From contig CBDBHB010000009.1 of NCBI GenBank assembly GCA_965205505.1, forward strand, positions 2,656,001 through 2,720,000: a stretch of DNA of 64,000 nucleotides. The letters are read 5' to 3'. Each line of letters starts with the position of its first letter. Position 1 is the first letter of the stretch. Source of the DNA: Acidobacteriota bacterium. GTDB lineage: Bacteria; Acidobacteriota; UBA890; WLXD01. Below the pieces are notes generated by a model. That model was not told the origin of the DNA and made no database searches. It saw only the letters and a list, made by a program, of their open reading frames with translations. The position numbers and the translations under genes are program-made. Positions 44,221-49,496 of the stretch are shown here, piece after piece.

Positions 44221-45786
44221 ATGATCAAGGTTCTCGACACCGCCGCCATGCAAGCGTGTGATCGCGCTGCGATCGACGACTACGGCGTCCGGGGCGACCT
44301 GCTGATGGAAAACGCCGGGTTGCAAGTGGTCGAGGCGCTGACGAGCCACTTCGGCGATCAGCCGCCAGCGAGCGTCGCGGTTTTGTGCGGGCGCGGCAAC
44401 AACGGCGGCGACGGGTTCGTCGTGGCACGCCACCTCCACAACACGGGCGGCGAGGTGGTGGTGTACCTGTTCGGCGAGGGATCGGTGCTGCGTGATGGCG
44501 CCGCCACCAACCATCGAATTGCGGTGACCCTCGGCGTGCCGGTGGTCGAGGTACACAACGAGGAGGCATGGGGCCCGCTGGCAGACGACCTGGCGGAGTT
44601 CGACTGCATCGTGGATGCGCTGCTGGGAACCGGGATCGAAAGCGCCCCTCGGGGTGCCATCGCGGCCGCTATCGAGAGCATCAACGCATCGGATGTTCCC
44701 GTGGTTGCGGTGGACCTGCCGAGCGGGCTGTTGGCCGATACGGGCGCTATTCAGGGCGCTGTCGTGGAGGCGGCCTTGACGGTTGCTCTGGGCGCGCCGA
44801 AGGTCTGCCACCTCTTGGCCCCGGCGAGCGAGACGTGTGGCGAGGTGGTGGTGGTGGACATCGGCCTCCCCACCGCGGTCATCGAAGCGGCGCGGGCCGC
44901 ATTGTGGCGACCGACTCGGGAGGATTGTGCGGCGGGATTGCCGCTCCGCTGGTCCGATAGCCACAAGGGGGATTATGGCCGCGTACTTGTCATCGGCGGG
45001 GCTCCGGGTACCGCCGGCGCCGCGGTGCTGGCGGCGCGCGGTGCGCTGCGGGGTGGGGGAGGTCTGGTGCACGTGCTGTGCCCCGAGACCGCCTATTTGC
45101 CTATTGCCTGCCAGCTTACGGAGGCGCTTGTGCATGTCGCCCCGGCCGGAGCCAGCGGTGGCCTCGGTGCAGACGCCGTGCTGGCGGCGCTCGAGCGTGC
45201 CGAGGCAGCCGACGCCGTGGCGATCGGGCCGGGTATCGGCACCGCTACCGAGACGGTCGCGTTGGTACGGCAGCTAGCGACGGAATGTGCCCGCCCCATG
45301 GTGATCGATGCCGATGGCCTCAACGCGCTCGTCGGCGTCCTTGAAGTGTTGACAGAAGCGGTCGGGCCGCGCGTGCTCACTCCGCATCCTGGCGAGGCGG
45401 CGCGGCTGCTGGGAGTCGATGTCGCCGACGTACAGTCGGATCGAGTCGGCGCAGCACGCGAGCTTACCGAGGCGTCCGGGGCGGTGGTGCTGCTTAAGGG
45501 GCATCGCTCTCTCACCGTCGAGCCCCAACAGGCGCCGGTCGTCAACCTGAGCGGCAATCCGGGGATGGCTACCGGCGGAACGGGCGATGTGTTGACTGGC
45601 CTGATCGCCGCTCTCATCGCGCAGGGGTTGCGCCCGGGGGCGGCCGCCTGGACCGGGGCCTGGCTGCATGGGCTGGCGGGCGATCTCGCAGCACAGCGCC
45701 TCGGGCAGACGGGCTGCCTGGCTTCGGATCTCGTCGACGAGATCCCTGACGCTTTCCGGCGCGTCGCCGAGGGGGCGGAGCCTTGA
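44221..45786 (+). CDS. nnr: Bifunctional NAD(P)HX epimerase/dehydratase
   Basis: LMENAG, GRGNNGGDG, DALLGTG, HKGDYG, IDADG, TPHPGEA, GGTGDVL. Confidence 0.94.
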   Translation: MIKVLDTAAMQACDRAAIDDYGVRGDLLMENAGLQVVEALTSHFGDQPPASVAVLCGRGNNGGDGFVVARHLHNTGGEVVVYLFGEGSVLRDGAATNHRIAVTLGVPVVEVHNEEAWGPLADDLAEFDCIVDALLGTGIESAPRGAIAAAIESINASDVPVVAVDLPSGLLADTGAIQGAVVEAALTVALGAPKVCHLLAPASETCGEVVVVDIGLPTAVIEAARAALWRPTREDCAAGLPLRWSDSHKGDYGRVLVIGGAPGTAGAAVLAARGALRGGGGLVHVLCPETAYLPIACQLTEALVHVAPAGASGGLGADAVLAALERAEAADAVAIGPGIGTATETVALVRQLATECARPMVIDADGLNALVGVLEVLTEAVGPRVLTPHPGEAARLLGVDVADVQSDRVGAARELTEASGAVVLLKGHRSLTVEPQQAPVVNLSGNPGMATGGTGDVLTGLIAALIAQGLRPGAAAWTGAWLHGLAGDLAAQRLGQTGCLASDLVDEIPDAFRRVAEGAEP

Positions 45787-46232
45787 GCCGCACACGCGAC
45801 TACGTGACCCATAGCGCCGAGGAGACCGAGCATGTCGGCGCCGGTCTCGGTCGCCGGCTTCGCGGTGGCGAGGTGATCCTGATCTTTGGCCCGCTCGGCG
45901 CCGGTAAGACGCAGCTGGTGCGCGGCATCGCGGCCGGGCTAGGGCTCGATCCCGGCCAGGTGTCGAGCCCGTCGTACGCGCTCATCAACGAGTACACCGG
46001 ACGGCGAACGCTCTACCATGTAGATCTATACCGGCTGAGTACAGCCGACCTCCCAGACTTGGGTCTAGAGGACCTCTACGGTCGGGGGTGCGTGGTGGTG
46101 ATCGAGTGGGCCGAGCGTCTAGAGGAGGCTGGATGGGATCTGGGCTCGTCGATCATCGTCGAGGTCGATCATCACCCTGACCGCTCCGACGTGCGCATTA
46201 TCGGCGTCGACGAAGCGGTCTCGGGCGGCTAG
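45783..46232 (+). CDS. tsaE: tRNA t6A biosynthesis ATPase
   Basis: GPLGAGKT, VSSPSY, HVDLYRL, IEW. Confidence 0.94.
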   Translation: MSRTRDYVTHSAEETEHVGAGLGRRLRGGEVILIFGPLGAGKTQLVRGIAAGLGLDPGQVSSPSYALINEYTGRRTLYHVDLYRLSTADLPDLGLEDLYGRGCVVVIEWAERLEEAGWDLGSSIIVEVDHHPDRSDVRIIGVDEAVSGG

Positions 46233-46334
46233 ATGAGATGAGATGAGAAGGCCAACCTCCTGAACGCAGTAGCCTGACGGCTCTGCAAACGTTTCTTCAA
46301 ACGTAACGGGCTCGAAGCCCAAGGAGGTTGGCCG

Positions 46335-47377
46335 ATGAGGAGTGTAACGATTGGACTGGACGTAAGCGACCGGTACAGCCGTATGTGCGTGCTCGACAGT
46401 AAGGGCAGGGTGATGGAGGAAGGGCGGGTGAGGACGAGCCCGGAGGGGCTGGCGAGGCGGTTCGGGTGCGAGGAGCCCGCTCGAGTAGTGCTGGAGGTTG
46501 GAACGCACTCGCCGTGGATGAGTGAGCAGTTGAAGCAACTGGGTCATGAGGTGCTGGTGGCTAACCCGAGGCGGCTGAAGCTGATCTATGGCGAGCACGG
46601 ACCGACCGGTTGGATGCCGAGCACCTGGCACGAGTGGGCAGAATGGACCCAAAGCTGCTTAAGACGGTGCAGCATCGAGGCAGACAAGCGCGAGCGGATC
46701 TAGCCGTGATTCGGAGCCGAGATGCTCTGGTAAAGAGCTGCACGCAGTTGGTGAGCCATGTGCGTGGTGCGGTCAAGTCGGCCGGTTGTCGTATTCCCAG
46801 GTGCTCGACGCCGGCGTTCGCGCGCACCGCGCCAGAGCACATACCGGAGCGGCTCAAGGGAGCGCTCGAGCCGGTGCTTGAAACGATCGCCATGCTGACG
46901 GGCAACATCCAGCAATACGAGCGTCAGATCGTGCAGCTGTGCCAGGGGCGATACCCGGAGACACAGCAGCTCCAGCAAGTGGCCGGGGTCGGAGCTCTGA
47001 CCGCACTGGCGTATGTGCTGACGCTCGAGGAGCCGGAGCGGTTCAATACCTCCAGAGCCGTGGGCCCGTACCTGGGACTGAGACCGAAGAAACGGCAGTC
47101 GGGGGACAAGGACCCTGCGCTACGAATAACCAAGGCGGGCGACAAAATGCTCCGACGCCTGTTGGTGGGCTCGGCGCATTACATCCTGGGCCCCTTCGGG
47201 CCCGATACTGAGCTCAGACGCTGGGGGCTCAAGCTGGCCGGACGCGGTGGTCCTCATGGCAACAAAAAGGCAGCAGTTGCTGTCGCCCGTAAGCTCGCCG
47301 TTGTGCTGCACCGACTGTGGCTGAGTGGAGACGAGTACGAACCGTTGCGCGCACCTGTAGAGGTTTCAGCAGCATGA
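46335..47377 (+). pseudogene. IS110 DEDD transposase, frameshifted at ~46598
   Basis: IGLDV and LE motifs in frame 1; TDRLDA, GVG...A, YLGL.P...QSG and AVARKL in second frame. Confidence 0.88.
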
Positions 47378-47379
47378 AC

Positions 47380-47610
47380 TAACCCGCAACCAGGAGGTCG
47401 GTAGGGCGACGCGACCCAACGGTTATCGATCTGACCGCCCGGTCCGGGCGACTGCGAAGGTCACTACGAGCTTCGAGCTCGGCAGCTAGATTGCAGCGCC
47501 TCGAATCGGGACGGACCCCAGAATGCACCGGACGACCTGAATCCTCGTCCACCAGAGTGCGAATAGGAGCATGGCGTGCAGATCGATTCTTCGCTGGGCA
47601 CCACATTGCC
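47380..47610 (+). ncRNA. Putative IS1111 bridge/seek RNA
   Basis: Stem ctgcga...ttgcag encloses ggtcacta, hairpin gagct-tcg-agctc and ggcagctag, which match the two halves of the flanking target; boundaries approximate. Confidence 0.65.
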
Positions 47611-47637
47611 CTTGACCGAACTAGGCCTTCTCATAGA

Positions 47638-47772
47638 AGTGGCCTGTAACAGATGGATATCGGCGTTGCGCCTCGTCGATGATGCCTATTGCATCGCCTT
47701 CCTCGCCGCGCCTTGATCTCACCCGCAAATCCCTTCTGCGATATGCGACGATCATCTGTTACAGGCCACTAG
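47638..47772. repeat. Internally deleted class-2 element whose left CTAG was split by IS1111
   Basis: agtggcctgtaacagatg / catctgttacaggccactag IR; one core arm; followed by a duplicate aggccactag. Confidence 0.85.
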
Positions 47773-47849
47773 AGGCCACTAGGCTGGGCTGTCGAGGTCT
47801 CTCTTGTGAGCTTCGTCGCGAGCATGTCGCGCCCCAGCTGCAGCGCCTC

Positions 47850-49496
47850 TCACTTGCTGTCCGAGAAGACGGGCGCCAGTAGATTGTCGACGGGTGCGTG
47901 GTCGTCGGTCAGCACCAACCCACCGCCGCGCTGCAGCACTGTCGCCATCTCTCCACCTAGGTGATCGGCCTCGGCCCAGGCAAACACGTGGCCCCAGGCG
48001 TCCGGAACGTTCTCTTTAGGTCCGATCTCCAGGATCGGTAAGGCTCGTCGAGAGCTCACCACGATGAAAGTGTCGCGCTCGTCCGTGGGTCCATCCGGGT
48101 CGCCAGCGAACACGTAGACGAACGGGAACGTCAATCGCACGGTGCCTACATAAGCACCCAAGAACCGGCCCAGACCCTCACGATAGATATCGATGATGTT
48201 GATCATGTAGACGCCGTCGGGCGTCATTACTTCGGCCAGGCGTTCGTTGAAGCCCCGTGTGGTCAGGTGGTAGGGCACGCCGAGGTCGTTGAACGCGTCT
48301 CCGTATACGAAGTCGAATTGATGTGGGTGCGTCACGCGTCGATTCTGCCGCCGCAGATCGTCGATGTAATTGCGAGCGTCCAGCGTGTGCGTCCGGATGC
48401 GGGTAGCATCGTCGGCGGGCAGGCCCAGAGCGACCTGAGCGGCACGCTTGACTGCCGGGTCGATCTCGGCGACGTCGATATCTGCTGCTGCGAAACGCGT
48501 ATCGAGATAGCGCGGAAACGTAAAACCACCACCGCCGATGAACAGCGCGCGCAAGGGCTCGTCAGTGCTTACCAAGTGGTGGGTCACCGCGGCGTAGACG
48601 GTCTCATAGCCGTAGTCCAGCTGCGTGATGTCGTCCATGTTCACGTAGCTGTGCACGAGATGATCCAGCGCCAACACGCGGGTGTTGTCGAATTCCTCGG
48701 CGTCATAGATCTCGATCGTGAAGTAGCTGCTCTCGTCCTGATAGTGAAGATGGTCGGTAGCGAAGCGTAGGCCCAAGAAATGGCCCCAGCGCTCGCTCCA
48801 CGCCCACGGCGCCACGGTTAGGGCAGAGATCAGAAACAGCAACGATAGCCAGACCACGAAGAACGAAGCAGGGCTGCGGCGCAAACCCCGTCCCGCTAGC
48901 AGGCCCATTGTCCCGAGGCCCGCGGCGATGACGCAGACGATCGTCTTGGTGCCGAAGGCATCGATCAACACGTAGCCGGTAAGGAACGTGCCGAGGATGC
49001 TTCCGGAGGCACCGCTCGCGTACAAGGTTCCAACCGTCGCGCCCACTTCACGTCGCGCTCCGAGAGCCAGCTTGGCTGCCACGGGCGAGATCGTGCCCAT
49101 GATGGTTGCCGGGGCAAGAAACGTGAGGGCGACGTTGCGAAGGATCCAGAGCGGCCAAGAGATGACCTCCGGCCTCTCCCAAGACCCCATCCAGTCGACG
49201 ACGAACAGCACGGAAAGACTCGACATCGAGGCCAGCAGGAACAAGGTCGTCAACAGGGCGCGGGGCGGATACAGGTCAGCAAGCTTGCCGCCGACGTAGT
49301 TGCCCACGGCGATCCCTGCCAGCACCACTCCGATTACCGCCGTCCAGGTGTAGAGCGATACGCCCAGATGCTGTGCTACGAGGCGCGCCGCGACGATCTC
49401 CAGCGTCATGATGAACGCCGAGCTGGTGAACACGACGAGGCTCGCACCCGCGATGGCACGACGCGACGAGGTGTGAGTGGAGTCTGGAGGCGGCAT
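47850..49496 (-). CDS. Fused membrane domain / spermidine synthase-like SAM-dependent protein
   Basis: N-terminal TM helices (LEIVAAR...GVSLYTW), FIGGGG, AEIDP, DAR, GDAF, LTDDHAPV. Confidence 0.85.
   Translation of the reverse strand: MPPPDSTHTSSRRAIAGASLVVFTSSAFIMTLEIVAARLVAQHLGVSLYTWTAVIGVVLAGIAVGNYVGGKLADLYPPRALLTTLFLLASMSSLSVLFVVDWMGSWERPEVISWPLWILRNVALTFLAPATIMGTISPVAAKLALGARREVGATVGTLYASGASGSILGTFLTGYVLIDAFGTKTIVCVIAAGLGTMGLLAGRGLRRSPASFFVVWLSLLFLISALTVAPWAWSERWGHFLGLRFATDHLHYQDESSYFTIEIYDAEEFDNTRVLALDHLVHSYVNMDDITQLDYGYETVYAAVTHHLVSTDEPLRALFIGGGGFTFPRYLDTRFAAADIDVAEIDPAVKRAAQVALGLPADDATRIRTHTLDARNYIDDLRRQNRRVTHPHQFDFVYGDAFNDLGVPYHLTTRGFNERLAEVMTPDGVYMINIIDIYREGLGRFLGAYVGTVRLTFPFVYVFAGDPDGPTDERDTFIVVSSRRALPILEIGPKENVPDAWGHVFAWAEADHLGGEMATVLQRGGGLVLTDDHAPVDNLLAPVFSDSK

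What the first reader, a model, noticed from the sequence alone, without database searches (positions are those of the whole stretch)
46222..47650. IS1111 non-coding end carries guide-like segments matching its target, which is the end of the palindromic repeat
Seen: removing the IS restores GGCGGCT-AG-TGGCCTGTAAC, i.e. the tsaE stop plus a class-2 repeat end. In the 3' non-coding region, ggcagctag (47481-47489) matches the left target half at 8/9. ggtcacta (47459-47466) matches the bottom strand of the right half at 7/8. Both flank a gagct-tcg-agctc hairpin inside a ctgcga/ttgcag stem. ataggag (47563-47569) resembles the IS right end atagaag. Known: IS110/IS1111 recombinases use bridge/seek RNAs with this loop layout. 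Inference: an RNA-guided element aimed at CTAGTG repeat termini as a multicopy safe landing site.
Basis: partly seen in the sequence, partly recalled or inferred. Interest (0 to 1): 0.8.

Follow-up and report, generated by a model that had tools for sequence, protein, structure and literature searches.

The report
RNA-guided IS1111 element targeting repeat ends
This is an ordinary member of the already known RNA-guided IS1111 group of insertion sequences: its 3' non-coding end encodes a bridge/seek RNA whose loops match the end of a small palindromic repeat, where about 30 copies have landed.

Summary
The element (window 46233-47639) is one of about 30 copies of an IS1111-type insertion sequence in this 5.98 Mb genome. 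All copies sit in the same site, CT-AG-TGGCCT(G), with AG as the shared crossover dinucleotide. This site is the tip of the terminal inverted repeat of a MITE-like repeat family.

The 3' non-coding region folds into a conserved stem, internal loop and hairpin. The loop's 5' strand, AGGUCACUA, pairs with the target top strand. Its 3' strand, GCAGCUAG, pairs with the bottom strand. This is the strand order published for IS1111 seekRNAs.

The match within the window alone is weak, because 9% of shuffles reach it. Also, 5 of the 9 matched positions of the left-half match (8/9) lie in flank that varies between copies. The decisive evidence is comparative:
- In 18 related elements with different targets, each guide fits its own target far better than foreign ones (0 of 20000 permutations).
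- The stems keep pairing through compensatory changes.
- The second loop tracks the IS right end in 17 of 17 relatives.

The window copy has a frameshifted transposase; 10 of 27 full copies are intact. This is known biology, a new member of a known kind.

The parts
45783..46232 (+). tsaE gene; its TAG stop (46230-46232) overlaps the CTAG tip of the target
   Evidence: ORF; Pfam TsaE 1.4e-33; orthologues in four same-genus genomes
46231..46232 (+). left copy of the AG crossover (core) dinucleotide
   Evidence: AG is the only sequence shared by the left junction, the right junction and the free sites; empty orthologous site in G003
46233..47639 (+). IS1111-type insertion sequence, counted with the right AG (equivalently 46231-47637 with the left AG). 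It is 1407 bp here. This copy has three AGATG units at its left end where all other copies have two.
   Evidence: blastn of the genome: 28 full-length matches plus partial ones; 30 left and 31 right ends by motif
46243..46253 (+). left subterminal inverted repeat ATGAGAAGGCC
   Evidence: exact reverse complement of 47624-47634; conserved in relatives
46250..46333 (+). 5' leader with an 11-nt inverted repeat (ggccaacctcc at 46250-60, ggaggttggcc at 46323-33) that can sequester the GGAGG ribosome-binding site just before the ATG at 46335
   Evidence: read from the sequence; the same arms are present in the G011 relative; function inferred
46335..46703 (+). transposase N-terminal fragment (DEDD/RuvC-like), out of frame after 46599
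   Evidence: Pfam PF01548; 4 nt (ACAA) are missing after 46599 relative to 15 of 27 copies
46610..47377 (+). transposase C-terminal fragment (Transposase_20) with the GLRPKKRQSG motif
   Evidence: Pfam PF02371 3.4e-17; intact 348-aa form in 10 of 27 copies
47446..47457 (+). 5' arm of the outer stem of the target-binding loop (gggcg-a-ctgcga)
   Evidence: RNAalifold consensus on 18 elements; helix 1 is 97.5% paired, 6 of 9 pairs have compensatory changes
47458..47466 (+). 5' loop strand (T guide) AGGUCACUA. It pairs with the top strand T-AG-TGGCCT: 8 Watson-Crick pairs plus 1 G.U.
   Evidence: only 9-nt pairing run in the IS sense strand; covaries with the right flank in relatives
47467..47481 (+). 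inner hairpin cgagct-tcg-agctcg
   Evidence: helix 2 has 3 of 4 pairs with compensatory changes
47482..47490 (+). 3' loop strand (B guide) GCAGCUAG followed by A. It has the same sense as the top strand ..CT-AG, so it pairs with the bottom strand.
   Evidence: all relatives end this strand in core+A
47491..47500 (+). 3' arm of the outer stem (ttgcag-cgcc)
47515..47569 (+). second (donor-type) loop. It comprises the 5' strand ACCCCAGAAU (47515-24), the stem GCAC (47525-28) / GUGC (47557-60) enclosing a hairpin (47530-50), and the 3' strand AUAGGAG (47563-69), which resembles the right end ATAGA-AG.
   Evidence: the 3' strand equals the last 7 nt of the element's own right end in 17 of 17 relatives; helix 3 is 97.2% paired; the role of the 5' strand is inferred only
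47612..47617 (+). TTGACC, a -35-like hexamer 22-27 nt from the right end
   Evidence: CTTGAC stands at this place in the non-coding regions listed; its promoter role is an inference from published junction promoters
47624..47634 (+). right subterminal inverted repeat GGCCTTCTCAT, followed by the 3-bp extension AGA (47635-37)
   Evidence: 7-bp left and 3-bp right extensions are the published IS1111 rule
47638..47639 (+). right copy of the AG core
47640..47772 (.). MITE-like palindromic repeat whose left tip is the insertion target. Its other tip (47762-47772, minus orientation) and an extra tip copy (47773-47782) are free target sites.
   Evidence: genome census

Best explanation
The element is an IS1111-group insertion sequence of the IS110 family. 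Its 3' non-coding region encodes a bridge/seek RNA.

Shown here:
- About 30 copies occupy one site, CT-AG-TGGCCT(G), always in the same orientation and without a target duplication beyond the shared AG.
- The non-coding region contains a conserved stem, internal loop and hairpin. The two loop strands are hypervariable between relatives, and each matches its own element's target.
- A second loop carries a strand identical to the element's own right end.

Inferred from the family's published mechanism:
- The 348-aa DEDD/serine recombinase, encoded intact by 10 of 27 full copies, excises the IS as a circle by joining the two AG dinucleotides.
- The RNA bound to the recombinase pairs AGGUCACUA with the top strand of T-AG-TGGCCT and GCAGCUAG with the bottom strand of CT-AG.
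- The second loop holds the joined IS ends.
- Strand exchange at AG inserts the IS with its right end against the repeat.

Specificity comes mainly from the right-hand guide. The left guide is used only over CU-AG, with a weak preference further out. The window copy cannot make transposase because of a 4-nt deletion, but its RNA region is identical to that of the other copies.
For: Target:
- 30 of 31 right ends abut AGTGGCCT; the other one abuts AGTGACCT.
- 27 of 28 unique left flanks end in CT, and 28 of 28 have T at -1.
- An empty orthologous site exists in G003.

Family features:
- Pfam PF01548 and PF02371 both match.
- NCBIfam NF033542 'IS110 family RNA-guided transposase' scores 206.9 bits against a cut-off of 140.
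- The protein is 348 aa with the motif GLRPKKRQSG.
- The subterminal inverted repeats are 11 bp, with a 7-bp left and a 3-bp right extension (against the passage read).
- The non-coding region is 262 nt downstream of the gene and about 100 nt upstream.

Guides, direct examples:
- G011 relative (63-68% aa identity): flanks ..gagt-AG-agtccgcgg and 5' loop strand CGGACTCTA, whose reverse complement TAGAGTCCG matches the target 9/9. Its 3' loop strand GAGTAG matches 6/6.
- L002 (43% identity): the reverse complement of its 5' loop strand is AAGCGCGTG against the target AAGCGTGTG. The one difference is a guide G facing a target T.

Guides, statistics over 18 elements (5' strand) and 15 elements (3' strand), Watson-Crick only: own-target mean run 7.17 against 3.55 for foreign targets, and 6.07 against 3.37. 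In each case 0 of 20000 permutations reach the observed sum.

Structure: 17 consensus pairs are 95.8% paired and 10 have compensatory changes. 0 of 500 shuffles reach this, and slid controls give 26-48% paired. G-U pairs occur in the stems on the sense strand only, which fits an RNA of that strand.

Donor loop: the strand ATRGAAR equals the element's own right end in 17 of 17 relatives, including two with an AA end.

Strand order: the top-strand guide lying 5' of the bottom-strand guide is the order published for IS1111 seekRNAs.

Expression hint: contigs from four metatranscriptome runs of one study cover the IS, including its 3' non-coding region.
Against: - No direct evidence of the RNA was obtained. 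The RNA-library data are contigs from one study; they may contain DNA and show no ends or strand. No circle-junction joint was seen there.
- No Rfam 15 family matches the region.
- Within the window alone, the 9-nt match is reached by 9% of shuffles.
- The left guide beyond CU-AG is poorly used. The guide base G at -6 is found in only 4 of 28 flanks, and only 11 of 28 have G at -3.
- The abundant target needs a G.U pair, and the donor strand AUAGGAG differs from the right end ATAGAAG at one position.
- Several relatives fit poorly. L039, L049 and L050 have one or more foreign targets scoring above their own for the 5' strand, and L043 and L050 for the 3' strand. In some relatives the base facing the core A is not complementary.
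- A partner in the second loop for the IS left end could not be pinned down.
Confidence: 0.9

Rival explanations
1. Target choice is made by the protein alone, for example by recognising the palindromic repeat tip as a DNA structure. The complementary segments in the non-coding end would then be coincidence.
For: The in-window match is not rare by itself: 1844 of 20000 shuffles reach it. The left flank is variable beyond CT. The targets of this element and of the G011 relative are both in palindromic contexts.
Against: Loop strands change together with the targets in relatives whose scaffold is conserved (0 of 20000 permutations). The 9/9 and 6/6 matches in G011 are to a quite different target. 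Published experiments on IS1111 members show that the RNA is required and reprogrammable (abstract and sections of PMC11187229).
Confidence: 0.03
2. The guide-like segments act as single-stranded DNA rather than RNA, as with the guide sequences at the ends of IS200/IS605 elements. Alternatively, they are remnants of target DNA captured by imprecise excision.
For: Sequence alone cannot tell RNA from single-stranded DNA. No raw RNA reads with defined ends were available.
Against: One segment is sense and the other antisense to the target. Both span the core and sit in a conserved stem-loop scaffold about 150 nt inside the element, which is not what a captured flank would look like. The stems tolerate G-U pairs on the sense strand. 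The transposase belongs to the family for which an RNA partner was purified and solved with the protein (titles and abstracts listed; PDB 8wt6 hit).
Confidence: 0.04
3. The copies did not arise by targeted insertion. Instead an IS-plus-repeat unit was duplicated, so the shared right flank reflects common descent, not targeting.
For: Some flanks recur: two copies share one left flank, and several right flanks are identical for more than 30 nt. Allele combinations among copies are mosaic, which shows recombination between copies.
Against: There are 28 different left flanks. The right flanks fall into several repeat subfamilies that diverge after 8-14 nt (GTAACAG, GTAGCAG, GAGTCAG and unique ones). 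The same repeat tips are present without the IS at 109 places in this genome. They occur 32-86 times in three same-genus genomes and once in a fourth, fragmented one; in none of the four was the IS found with the protein query.
Confidence: 0.03

Closest known systems
IS1111-group seekRNA / bridge RNA elements (ISEc11, ISPa11, ISKpn4, ISPst6; Siddiquee et al. 2024, PMC11187229; Durrant et al. 2024, PMC11208160)
   Same: DEDD transposase of 330-350 aa with the GL-P----SG motif. Subterminal inverted repeats of 11-13 bp with 7-bp and 3-bp extensions. Long non-coding region downstream of the gene. Two short segments, the one complementary to the top strand lying 5' of the one complementary to the bottom strand, that overlap at the insertion point. 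No target duplication. (Passages and sections read.)
   Different: The target sequence and guide letters differ. The nearest relative found is only 63-68% identical, and the phylum relatives 47-58%. The abundant target is read through a G.U pair, and the left guide is used over only 4 nt. Not compared base by base with ISfinder entries, which were not available here.
ISPa11, ISPpu9 and ISPpu10: IS110/IS1111 elements that insert into REP sequences of Pseudomonas (PMC11187229; PMC12288879; Tobes and Pareja 2006, seen only as a reference)
   Same: A multicopy palindromic repeat serves as the landing site. [quoted passage not shown]
   Different: Here the repeat is a 132-617 bp MITE-like unit with long terminal inverted repeats, and the site is its very tip, not a 35-bp REP hairpin. 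No Ssr9/Asr9-like extra RNAs were looked for.
[quoted passage not shown]
   Same: An IS1111 element that uses the terminal inverted repeat of another mobile element as its specific target.
   Different: The target element is different (a small non-autonomous repeat in a high-GC environmental genome). The paper itself was not read.
IS621 bridge recombinase-bridge RNA complex (PDB 8wt6; Hiraizumi et al. 2024, PMC11208158, listing and abstract only) and ISCro4 (PDB 9t56)
   Same: The same protein family. The C-terminal domain aligns (E 4.5e-08 and 4.7e-09). Both use a two-loop RNA with target and donor loops.
   Different: IS621 is in the IS110 group. Its RNA is in the left end, and the strand order of its guides is reversed relative to IS1111. 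Sequence similarity is weak and limited to residues 188-340.

Membership tests
IS1111 group of the IS110 family | DEDD (RuvC-like) N-terminal domain plus PF02371 C-terminal domain | tested here: met
   Intact copy: PF01548 1.1e-17 and PF02371 5.5e-17; NF033542 scores 206.9 bits against a cut-off of 140. The window copy carries the same two domains in two frames.
IS1111 group of the IS110 family | Transposase of 330-350 aa with a GL-P----S(t)G motif (criterion from PMC11187229) | tested here: met
   348 aa, GLRPKKRQSG
IS1111 group of the IS110 family | Subterminal inverted repeats, usually 11-13 bp, with terminal extensions of 7 bp (left) and 3 bp (right) | tested here: met
   ATGAGAAGGCC at 46243-53 and GGCCTTCTCAT at 47624-34. 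The left extension is AGATGAG in the two-unit copies and the right extension is AGA. The window copy has a 12-bp left extension.
IS1111 group of the IS110 family | Longer non-coding region downstream of the transposase gene | tested here: met
   262 nt downstream (47378-47639) against 102 nt upstream (46233-46334)
IS1111 group of the IS110 family | One specific target, fixed orientation, no target-site duplication | tested here: met
   30/31 right flanks AGTGGCCT and 27/28 left flanks CT; only AG is shared at both junctions; empty site in G003
seekRNA / bridge RNA-guided recombinases | [quoted passage not shown] | tested here: met
   47458-66 and 47482-89. Covariation over 18 and 15 relatives, 0/20000 permutations. 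Order as.
seekRNA / bridge RNA-guided recombinases | Conserved RNA secondary structure around the variable loops | tested here: met
   17 pairs, 95.8% paired, 10 with compensatory change, 0/500 shuffles
seekRNA / bridge RNA-guided recombinases | Donor-binding loop complementary to both IS ends | tested here: inconclusive
   The right-end strand is clear (17/17 relatives). In this element it has one G-for-A difference. A left-end partner was only seen by eye as a CCNCA-type motif 5' of the GCAC stem, and it does not fit this element well (listing).
seekRNA / bridge RNA-guided recombinases | The RNA is made and binds the transposase; a circular intermediate forms | not testable with these tools
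   Only contigs of RNA libraries from one study cover the region, and no circle joint was seen.
Rfam RNA families | Match to a curated covariance model | tested here: not met
   No family matched 45500-48500 at E up to 10, except a chance snoRNA hit inside tsaE.

The most novel reading that the evidence does not exclude
The element may be caught part-way through a natural retargeting, or may run as a deliberately 'loose' guide. Three observations point this way.
- Its right guide is a perfect match for TGACCT, which is present at only 2 free sites and 1 occupied site. Yet it has colonised the far commoner TGGCCT repeat tips through a G.U pair.
- Its left guide contributes only CU-AG.
- Its donor strand also reads its own end through a G.T pair.

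If so, wobble-tolerant and one-sided guide use would be what lets an IS1111 element spread over a whole repeat family, and over repeat subfamilies with different left contexts.
Probability: 0.25. Interest if true: 0.45.

Novelty: new member of a known kind. Interest (0 to 1): 0.3.

Why it matters
The finding adds little that is new in principle. RNA-guided targeting by IS1111 elements, including targeting of palindromic repeats and of other transposons' inverted repeats, has been in print since 2024, and annotation pipelines already name the protein accordingly.

Its use is as a clean natural data set. One genome holds 31 occupied and 109 free sites. There are 18 related elements whose loops have been naturally reprogrammed to different targets. 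Same-genus genomes carry the target repeats but, as far as the protein search shows, not the IS.

That data set could serve to study how many guide positions are really needed, how G.U pairs are tolerated, and how such an element invades a repeat family.

Tried and rejected
1. I first read CTCGTCC (47544-50) as the donor guide for the left end. Comparison with relatives shows it is the 3' arm of a hairpin (GGACGA at 47530-35 with TCGTCC at 47545-50) whose sequence is not conserved, so I dropped this reading.

2. I considered that the 12 of 27 copies sharing the 4-nt deletion show mobilisation of defective copies in trans. The 27 copies have 27 different allele combinations over 10 polymorphic sites. 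Recombination between copies, or assembly mixing, can therefore explain the sharing, and the idea is not supported.

3. A position-anchored guide/target table from alignment A1 was abandoned, because MAFFT shifts the loop register between elements (for example L033 by 2 columns). The register-free run test was used instead.

4. One search (one scan of genome contigs with the protein) gave a single relative, L002.

5. RNA evidence: four metatranscriptome runs of one study hold contigs of the IS. Contigs cannot show ends, strand or level, and DNA may be present. No circle joint was listed. This neither proves nor disproves the RNA.

6. Rfam gave no family.

7. The B-type shuffle test is uninformative: a 5-nt run is reached in 19264 of 20000 shuffles.

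8. Supplementary figures and tables of the papers, which show the published seekRNA folds and ISfinder-wide predictions, could not be seen. They may already contain close relatives of this element.

Rows dropped:
- L036 (from the unpublished genome G166) was left out of every count.
- L055 and L057 were dropped as second copies of L033 and L043.
- L034, L041, L042 and L051-L054 had no right end or non-coding region parsed.
- L044-L046 had no left flank parsed and were absent from the 3'-strand test.
Full report
WHAT IS THERE

Window 46233-47639 is an insertion sequence lying between the stop codon of tsaE (45783-46232; Pfam TsaE 1.4e-33) and a small palindromic repeat (47640-47772).

It carries an IS110-family transposase split into two frames: 46335-46703 with PF01548, and 46610-47377 with PF02371.

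The window lies in a 5.98 Mb, 64% G+C genome of 9 contigs. blastn finds 28 full-length matches and several partial ones. Motif searches find 30 left ends and 31 right ends.

Of the 27 copies with both ends, 10 encode an intact 348-aa protein. The window copy lacks 4 nt (ACAA) after 46599, as do 11 others. Five further copies lack one base at 46740.

The intact protein scores 206.9 bits on NCBIfam NF033542, 'IS110 family RNA-guided transposase' (cut-off 140). It has both Pfam domains and shows weak C-terminal similarity to the solved ISCro4 and IS621 recombinases.

BOUNDARIES AND TARGET

All left junctions read N..CT|AG-ATGAG-ATGAGAAGGCC. All right junctions read GGCCTTCTCAT-AGA-AG|TGGCCT...

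Free sites in the genome read CTAGTGGCCT. The only letters common to both junctions and the free site are AG, so AG is the crossover dinucleotide and nothing else is duplicated.

With the left AG counted as part of the IS, the terminal extensions are 7 bp (AGATGAG) and 3 bp (AGA), outside an 11-bp perfect subterminal inverted repeat. That is the rule given for IS1111 members in the passage of PMC11187229 read. The window copy is unusual in having a third AGATG unit.

Direct proof of the empty site comes from a same-genus genome. In G003, tsaE ends ..ggcagTTAG and is followed at once by TGGCCTGTAACAGATGATCG, with no IS. In G004 (96% identical tsaE) neither the repeat nor the IS is present.

HOW SPECIFIC IS THE TARGET

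- 30 of 31 right flanks begin TGGCCT after the AG; one begins TGACCT.
- Of 28 unique left flanks, 28 have T at -1 and 27 have C at -2.
- Further left the flanks differ. G occurs at -7 in 16/28 (binomial p 0.005), C at -5 in 15/28 (p 0.015), A at -4 in 10/28 (p 0.02) and G at -3 in 11/28 (not significant). At -6 the guide base G occurs in only 4/28.
- Compared with free sites, occupied sites have more G at -3 (11/28 against 21/109, p 0.04) and less A at -3 (7/28 against 60/109, p 0.006).

WHAT THE TARGET IS

CTAGTGGCCT occurs 109 times free, against 13.5 expected from base composition. 65 of these are followed by GTAACAG or GTAGCAG.

The sites are the tips of terminal inverted repeats of short non-autonomous repeats. 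There are 92 such tips. The 24 paired tips lie 34-617 bp apart (22 of them 132-617 bp), with modes near 273 and 547 bp. No unit of a size that could encode a protein was found within 6 kb.

The same tip (16-nt pattern) occurs 86, 77, 32 and 1 times in four same-genus genomes, with zero hits for the reversed control. The IS transposase was not found in three of these genomes, and the fourth gave only a distant hit, E 4.9e-7. So the repeat family is older than the spread of this IS in this genome.

THE NON-CODING END

The 262 nt after the stop codon contain the following segments:
- gggcg-a-CTGCGA
- AGGTCACTA (47458-66)
- the hairpin cgagct-tcg-agctcg (47467-81)
- GCAGCTAG-A (47482-90)
- TTGCAG-cgcc

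The 5' loop strand can pair with the top strand of T-AG-TGGCCT over 9 nt, with one G.U pair. It pairs perfectly with the single TGACCT site. The 3' loop strand has the sense of ..CT-AG, so it can pair with the bottom strand. Both cover the AG.

This order is the one reported for all IS1111 seekRNAs tested, and it is reversed in the IS110 member ISEc21 (sections read). Durrant et al. place the predicted bridge RNA in the right end of 93% of IS1111 elements (passage).

By itself the match is not compelling. It is the only 9-nt run in the IS sense strand, but 1844 of 20000 shuffles of the region reach one.

COVARIATION

A search of 41 related genomes gave one close relative in G011, at 63-68% identity, with its gene interrupted by about 2.7 kb. 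A search of 401 genomes of the phylum gave about 20 more at 47-58%. A scan of genome contigs gave L002 at 43%.

Their ends are conserved: AG-ATGRG-ATGAGAAGGCC ... GGCCTTCTCAT-RGA-AG. Their flanks all differ. The scaffold GACTGCG ... TGGCAGCRCC is also conserved, while the two loop strands are different in every element.

Direct examples:
- G011 has flanks ..gagt-AG-agtccgcgg. The reverse complement of its 5' strand CGGACTCTA is TAGAGTCCG, a 9/9 match. Its 3' strand contains GAGTAG, a 6/6 match.
- L002 has flanks ..cctaa-AG-cgtgtg.. and strands CACGCGCTT and TCTAAAG.

A register-free test scored the longest pairing run of each guide against every element's target:

| Loop strand | Elements | Pairing rule | Own target | Foreign targets |
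|---|---|---|---|---|
| 5' strand | 18 | Watson-Crick | 7.17 | 3.55 |
| 3' strand | 15 | Watson-Crick | 6.07 | 3.37 |
| 5' strand | 18 | G.U allowed | 8.17 | 4.62 |
| 3' strand | 15 | G.U allowed | 6.93 | 4.42 |

In all four versions, 0 of 20000 permutations of the target labels reach the observed sum.

Not all elements fit. L039, L049 and L050 (5' strand) and L043 and L050 (3' strand) have foreign targets that score higher. L049's right flank is a copy of part of its own non-coding region. L050's guide matches a sequence 8 nt further to the right.

Related elements with similar targets (L035/L037, L038/L056) make the test conservative, but the elements are kin and not independent.

STRUCTURE

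RNAalifold on the 18 sequences gives the outer stem, the inner hairpin and a GCAC/GUGC stem. Counted on that structure, 95.8% of cells are paired and 10 of 17 pairs show changes on both sides. 0 of 500 shuffles reach any of the five measures, and sliding the partners by 1-3 columns drops pairing to 26-48%. L049 replaces CUGCGA/UUGCAG by CGACGA/UUGUCG, with two compensatory pairs. The structure was predicted on this same alignment, which favours it somewhat.

SECOND LOOP

In 17 of 17 relatives the corresponding strand, ATRGAAR, is identical to the last 7 nt of that element's own right end. This includes the A/G difference at the fourth position and the AA end of L044 and L045.

In this element it differs from ATAGAAG at one position, where a G in the RNA would face a T. 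This supports a donor-type loop. I could not define its partner for the left end with confidence.

EXPRESSION

Four metatranscriptome runs of one study hold contigs that cover the IS, including 47107-47636. One of them carries the intact (ACAA) form. These are contigs of RNA libraries, and no circle joint was listed. I count this as a weak hint only.

VERDICT

The element meets every sequence-level criterion of the IS1111 group and of its seekRNA/bridge RNA. The criteria that need experiments (RNA made and bound, circle formed) could not be tested.

It is a new member of a known kind. Targeting of multicopy palindromic repeats (ISPa11, ISPpu9/10) and of other transposons' inverted repeats (IS4321/IS5075) by this group is already described.

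Noticed in passing
window 46231-46253: The window copy has three AGATG units at its left end (AG-ATG-AG-ATG-AG-ATGAGAAGG), where all other copies have two. The repeated unit contains the AG crossover dinucleotide, so a shifted crossover or slippage at the recombination site is possible.
   Followed up: partly
window 46599/46600 and 46740; all 27 full copies in the genome: Three transposase states exist: intact in 10 copies, a 4-nt deletion in 12 and a 1-nt deletion in 5, with one copy carrying both deletions and one having a shortened frame from another cause. Over 10 polymorphic sites the 27 copies show 27 different allele combinations. This points to recombination or gene conversion between copies, or to mixing during assembly.
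   Followed up: partly
window 46250-46260 and 46323-46333: An exact 11-nt inverted repeat in the 5' leader pairs ggccaacctcc with ggaggttggcc. The second arm holds the GGAGG ribosome-binding site just before the ATG. It is a likely translational brake on read-through transcripts. The same arms are present in the G011 relative.
   Followed up: no
window 47612-47617; right ends of relatives: A TTGAC -35-like hexamer stands about 22-27 nt from the right end in the relatives listed. Joined to the left end it would face GAAGAT across the junction. This would be a junction promoter of the kind published for ISEc11 and ISEc21. It was read by eye only and not scanned.
   Followed up: no
window 47640-47782; genome-wide: The genome holds a MITE-like repeat family with long terminal inverted repeats (CTAGTGGCCTGTAACAGATGATCGTTGC...) and units of 132-617 bp. 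At least two interior types exist and no autonomous copy was seen. There are 32-86 tips in three same-genus genomes and 1 in a fourth, fragmented one. Half of the free sites have A at -3. Two free target sites lie in the window at 47762-47772 and 47773-47782 (minus orientation).
   Followed up: partly
L060 (G003) 1940-1960 and L058 (G004) about 1500: In G003 the same repeat family abuts the tsaE stop codon at the same position as in the window (TTAG|TGGCCTG). In G004, whose tsaE is 96% identical, there is no repeat. The stop codon TAG is thus shared between the gene and the repeat tip.
   Followed up: partly
L044 and L045: Two relatives end in ..CATAGA-AA instead of -AG. Both loops carry AA at the matching place (GATAA-A, AATAGAAA), and L045's left end starts AA-ATGGG. 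This is a natural change of the crossover dinucleotide that is mirrored in the RNA.
   Followed up: partly
L049 and L050: L049's right flank repeats about 30 nt of its own 3' non-coding region, so its right guide has no match there. L050's right guide matches a sequence that begins 8 nt beyond the parsed right end. Both look like rearranged or mis-bounded copies.
   Followed up: no
G011:C1 about 3908074-3912197 (L019, L004): The closest relative (63-68% aa identity) has its transposase gene interrupted by about 2.7 kb between residues about 150 and 146. The inserted DNA was not examined.
   Followed up: no
genome C9, minus strand, right end at reverse-strand index 3099266: The single copy whose right flank reads TGACCT, not TGGCCT, is the only one that the right guide matches by Watson-Crick pairs throughout. 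Only 2 free CTAGTGACCT sites exist in the genome.
   Followed up: partly
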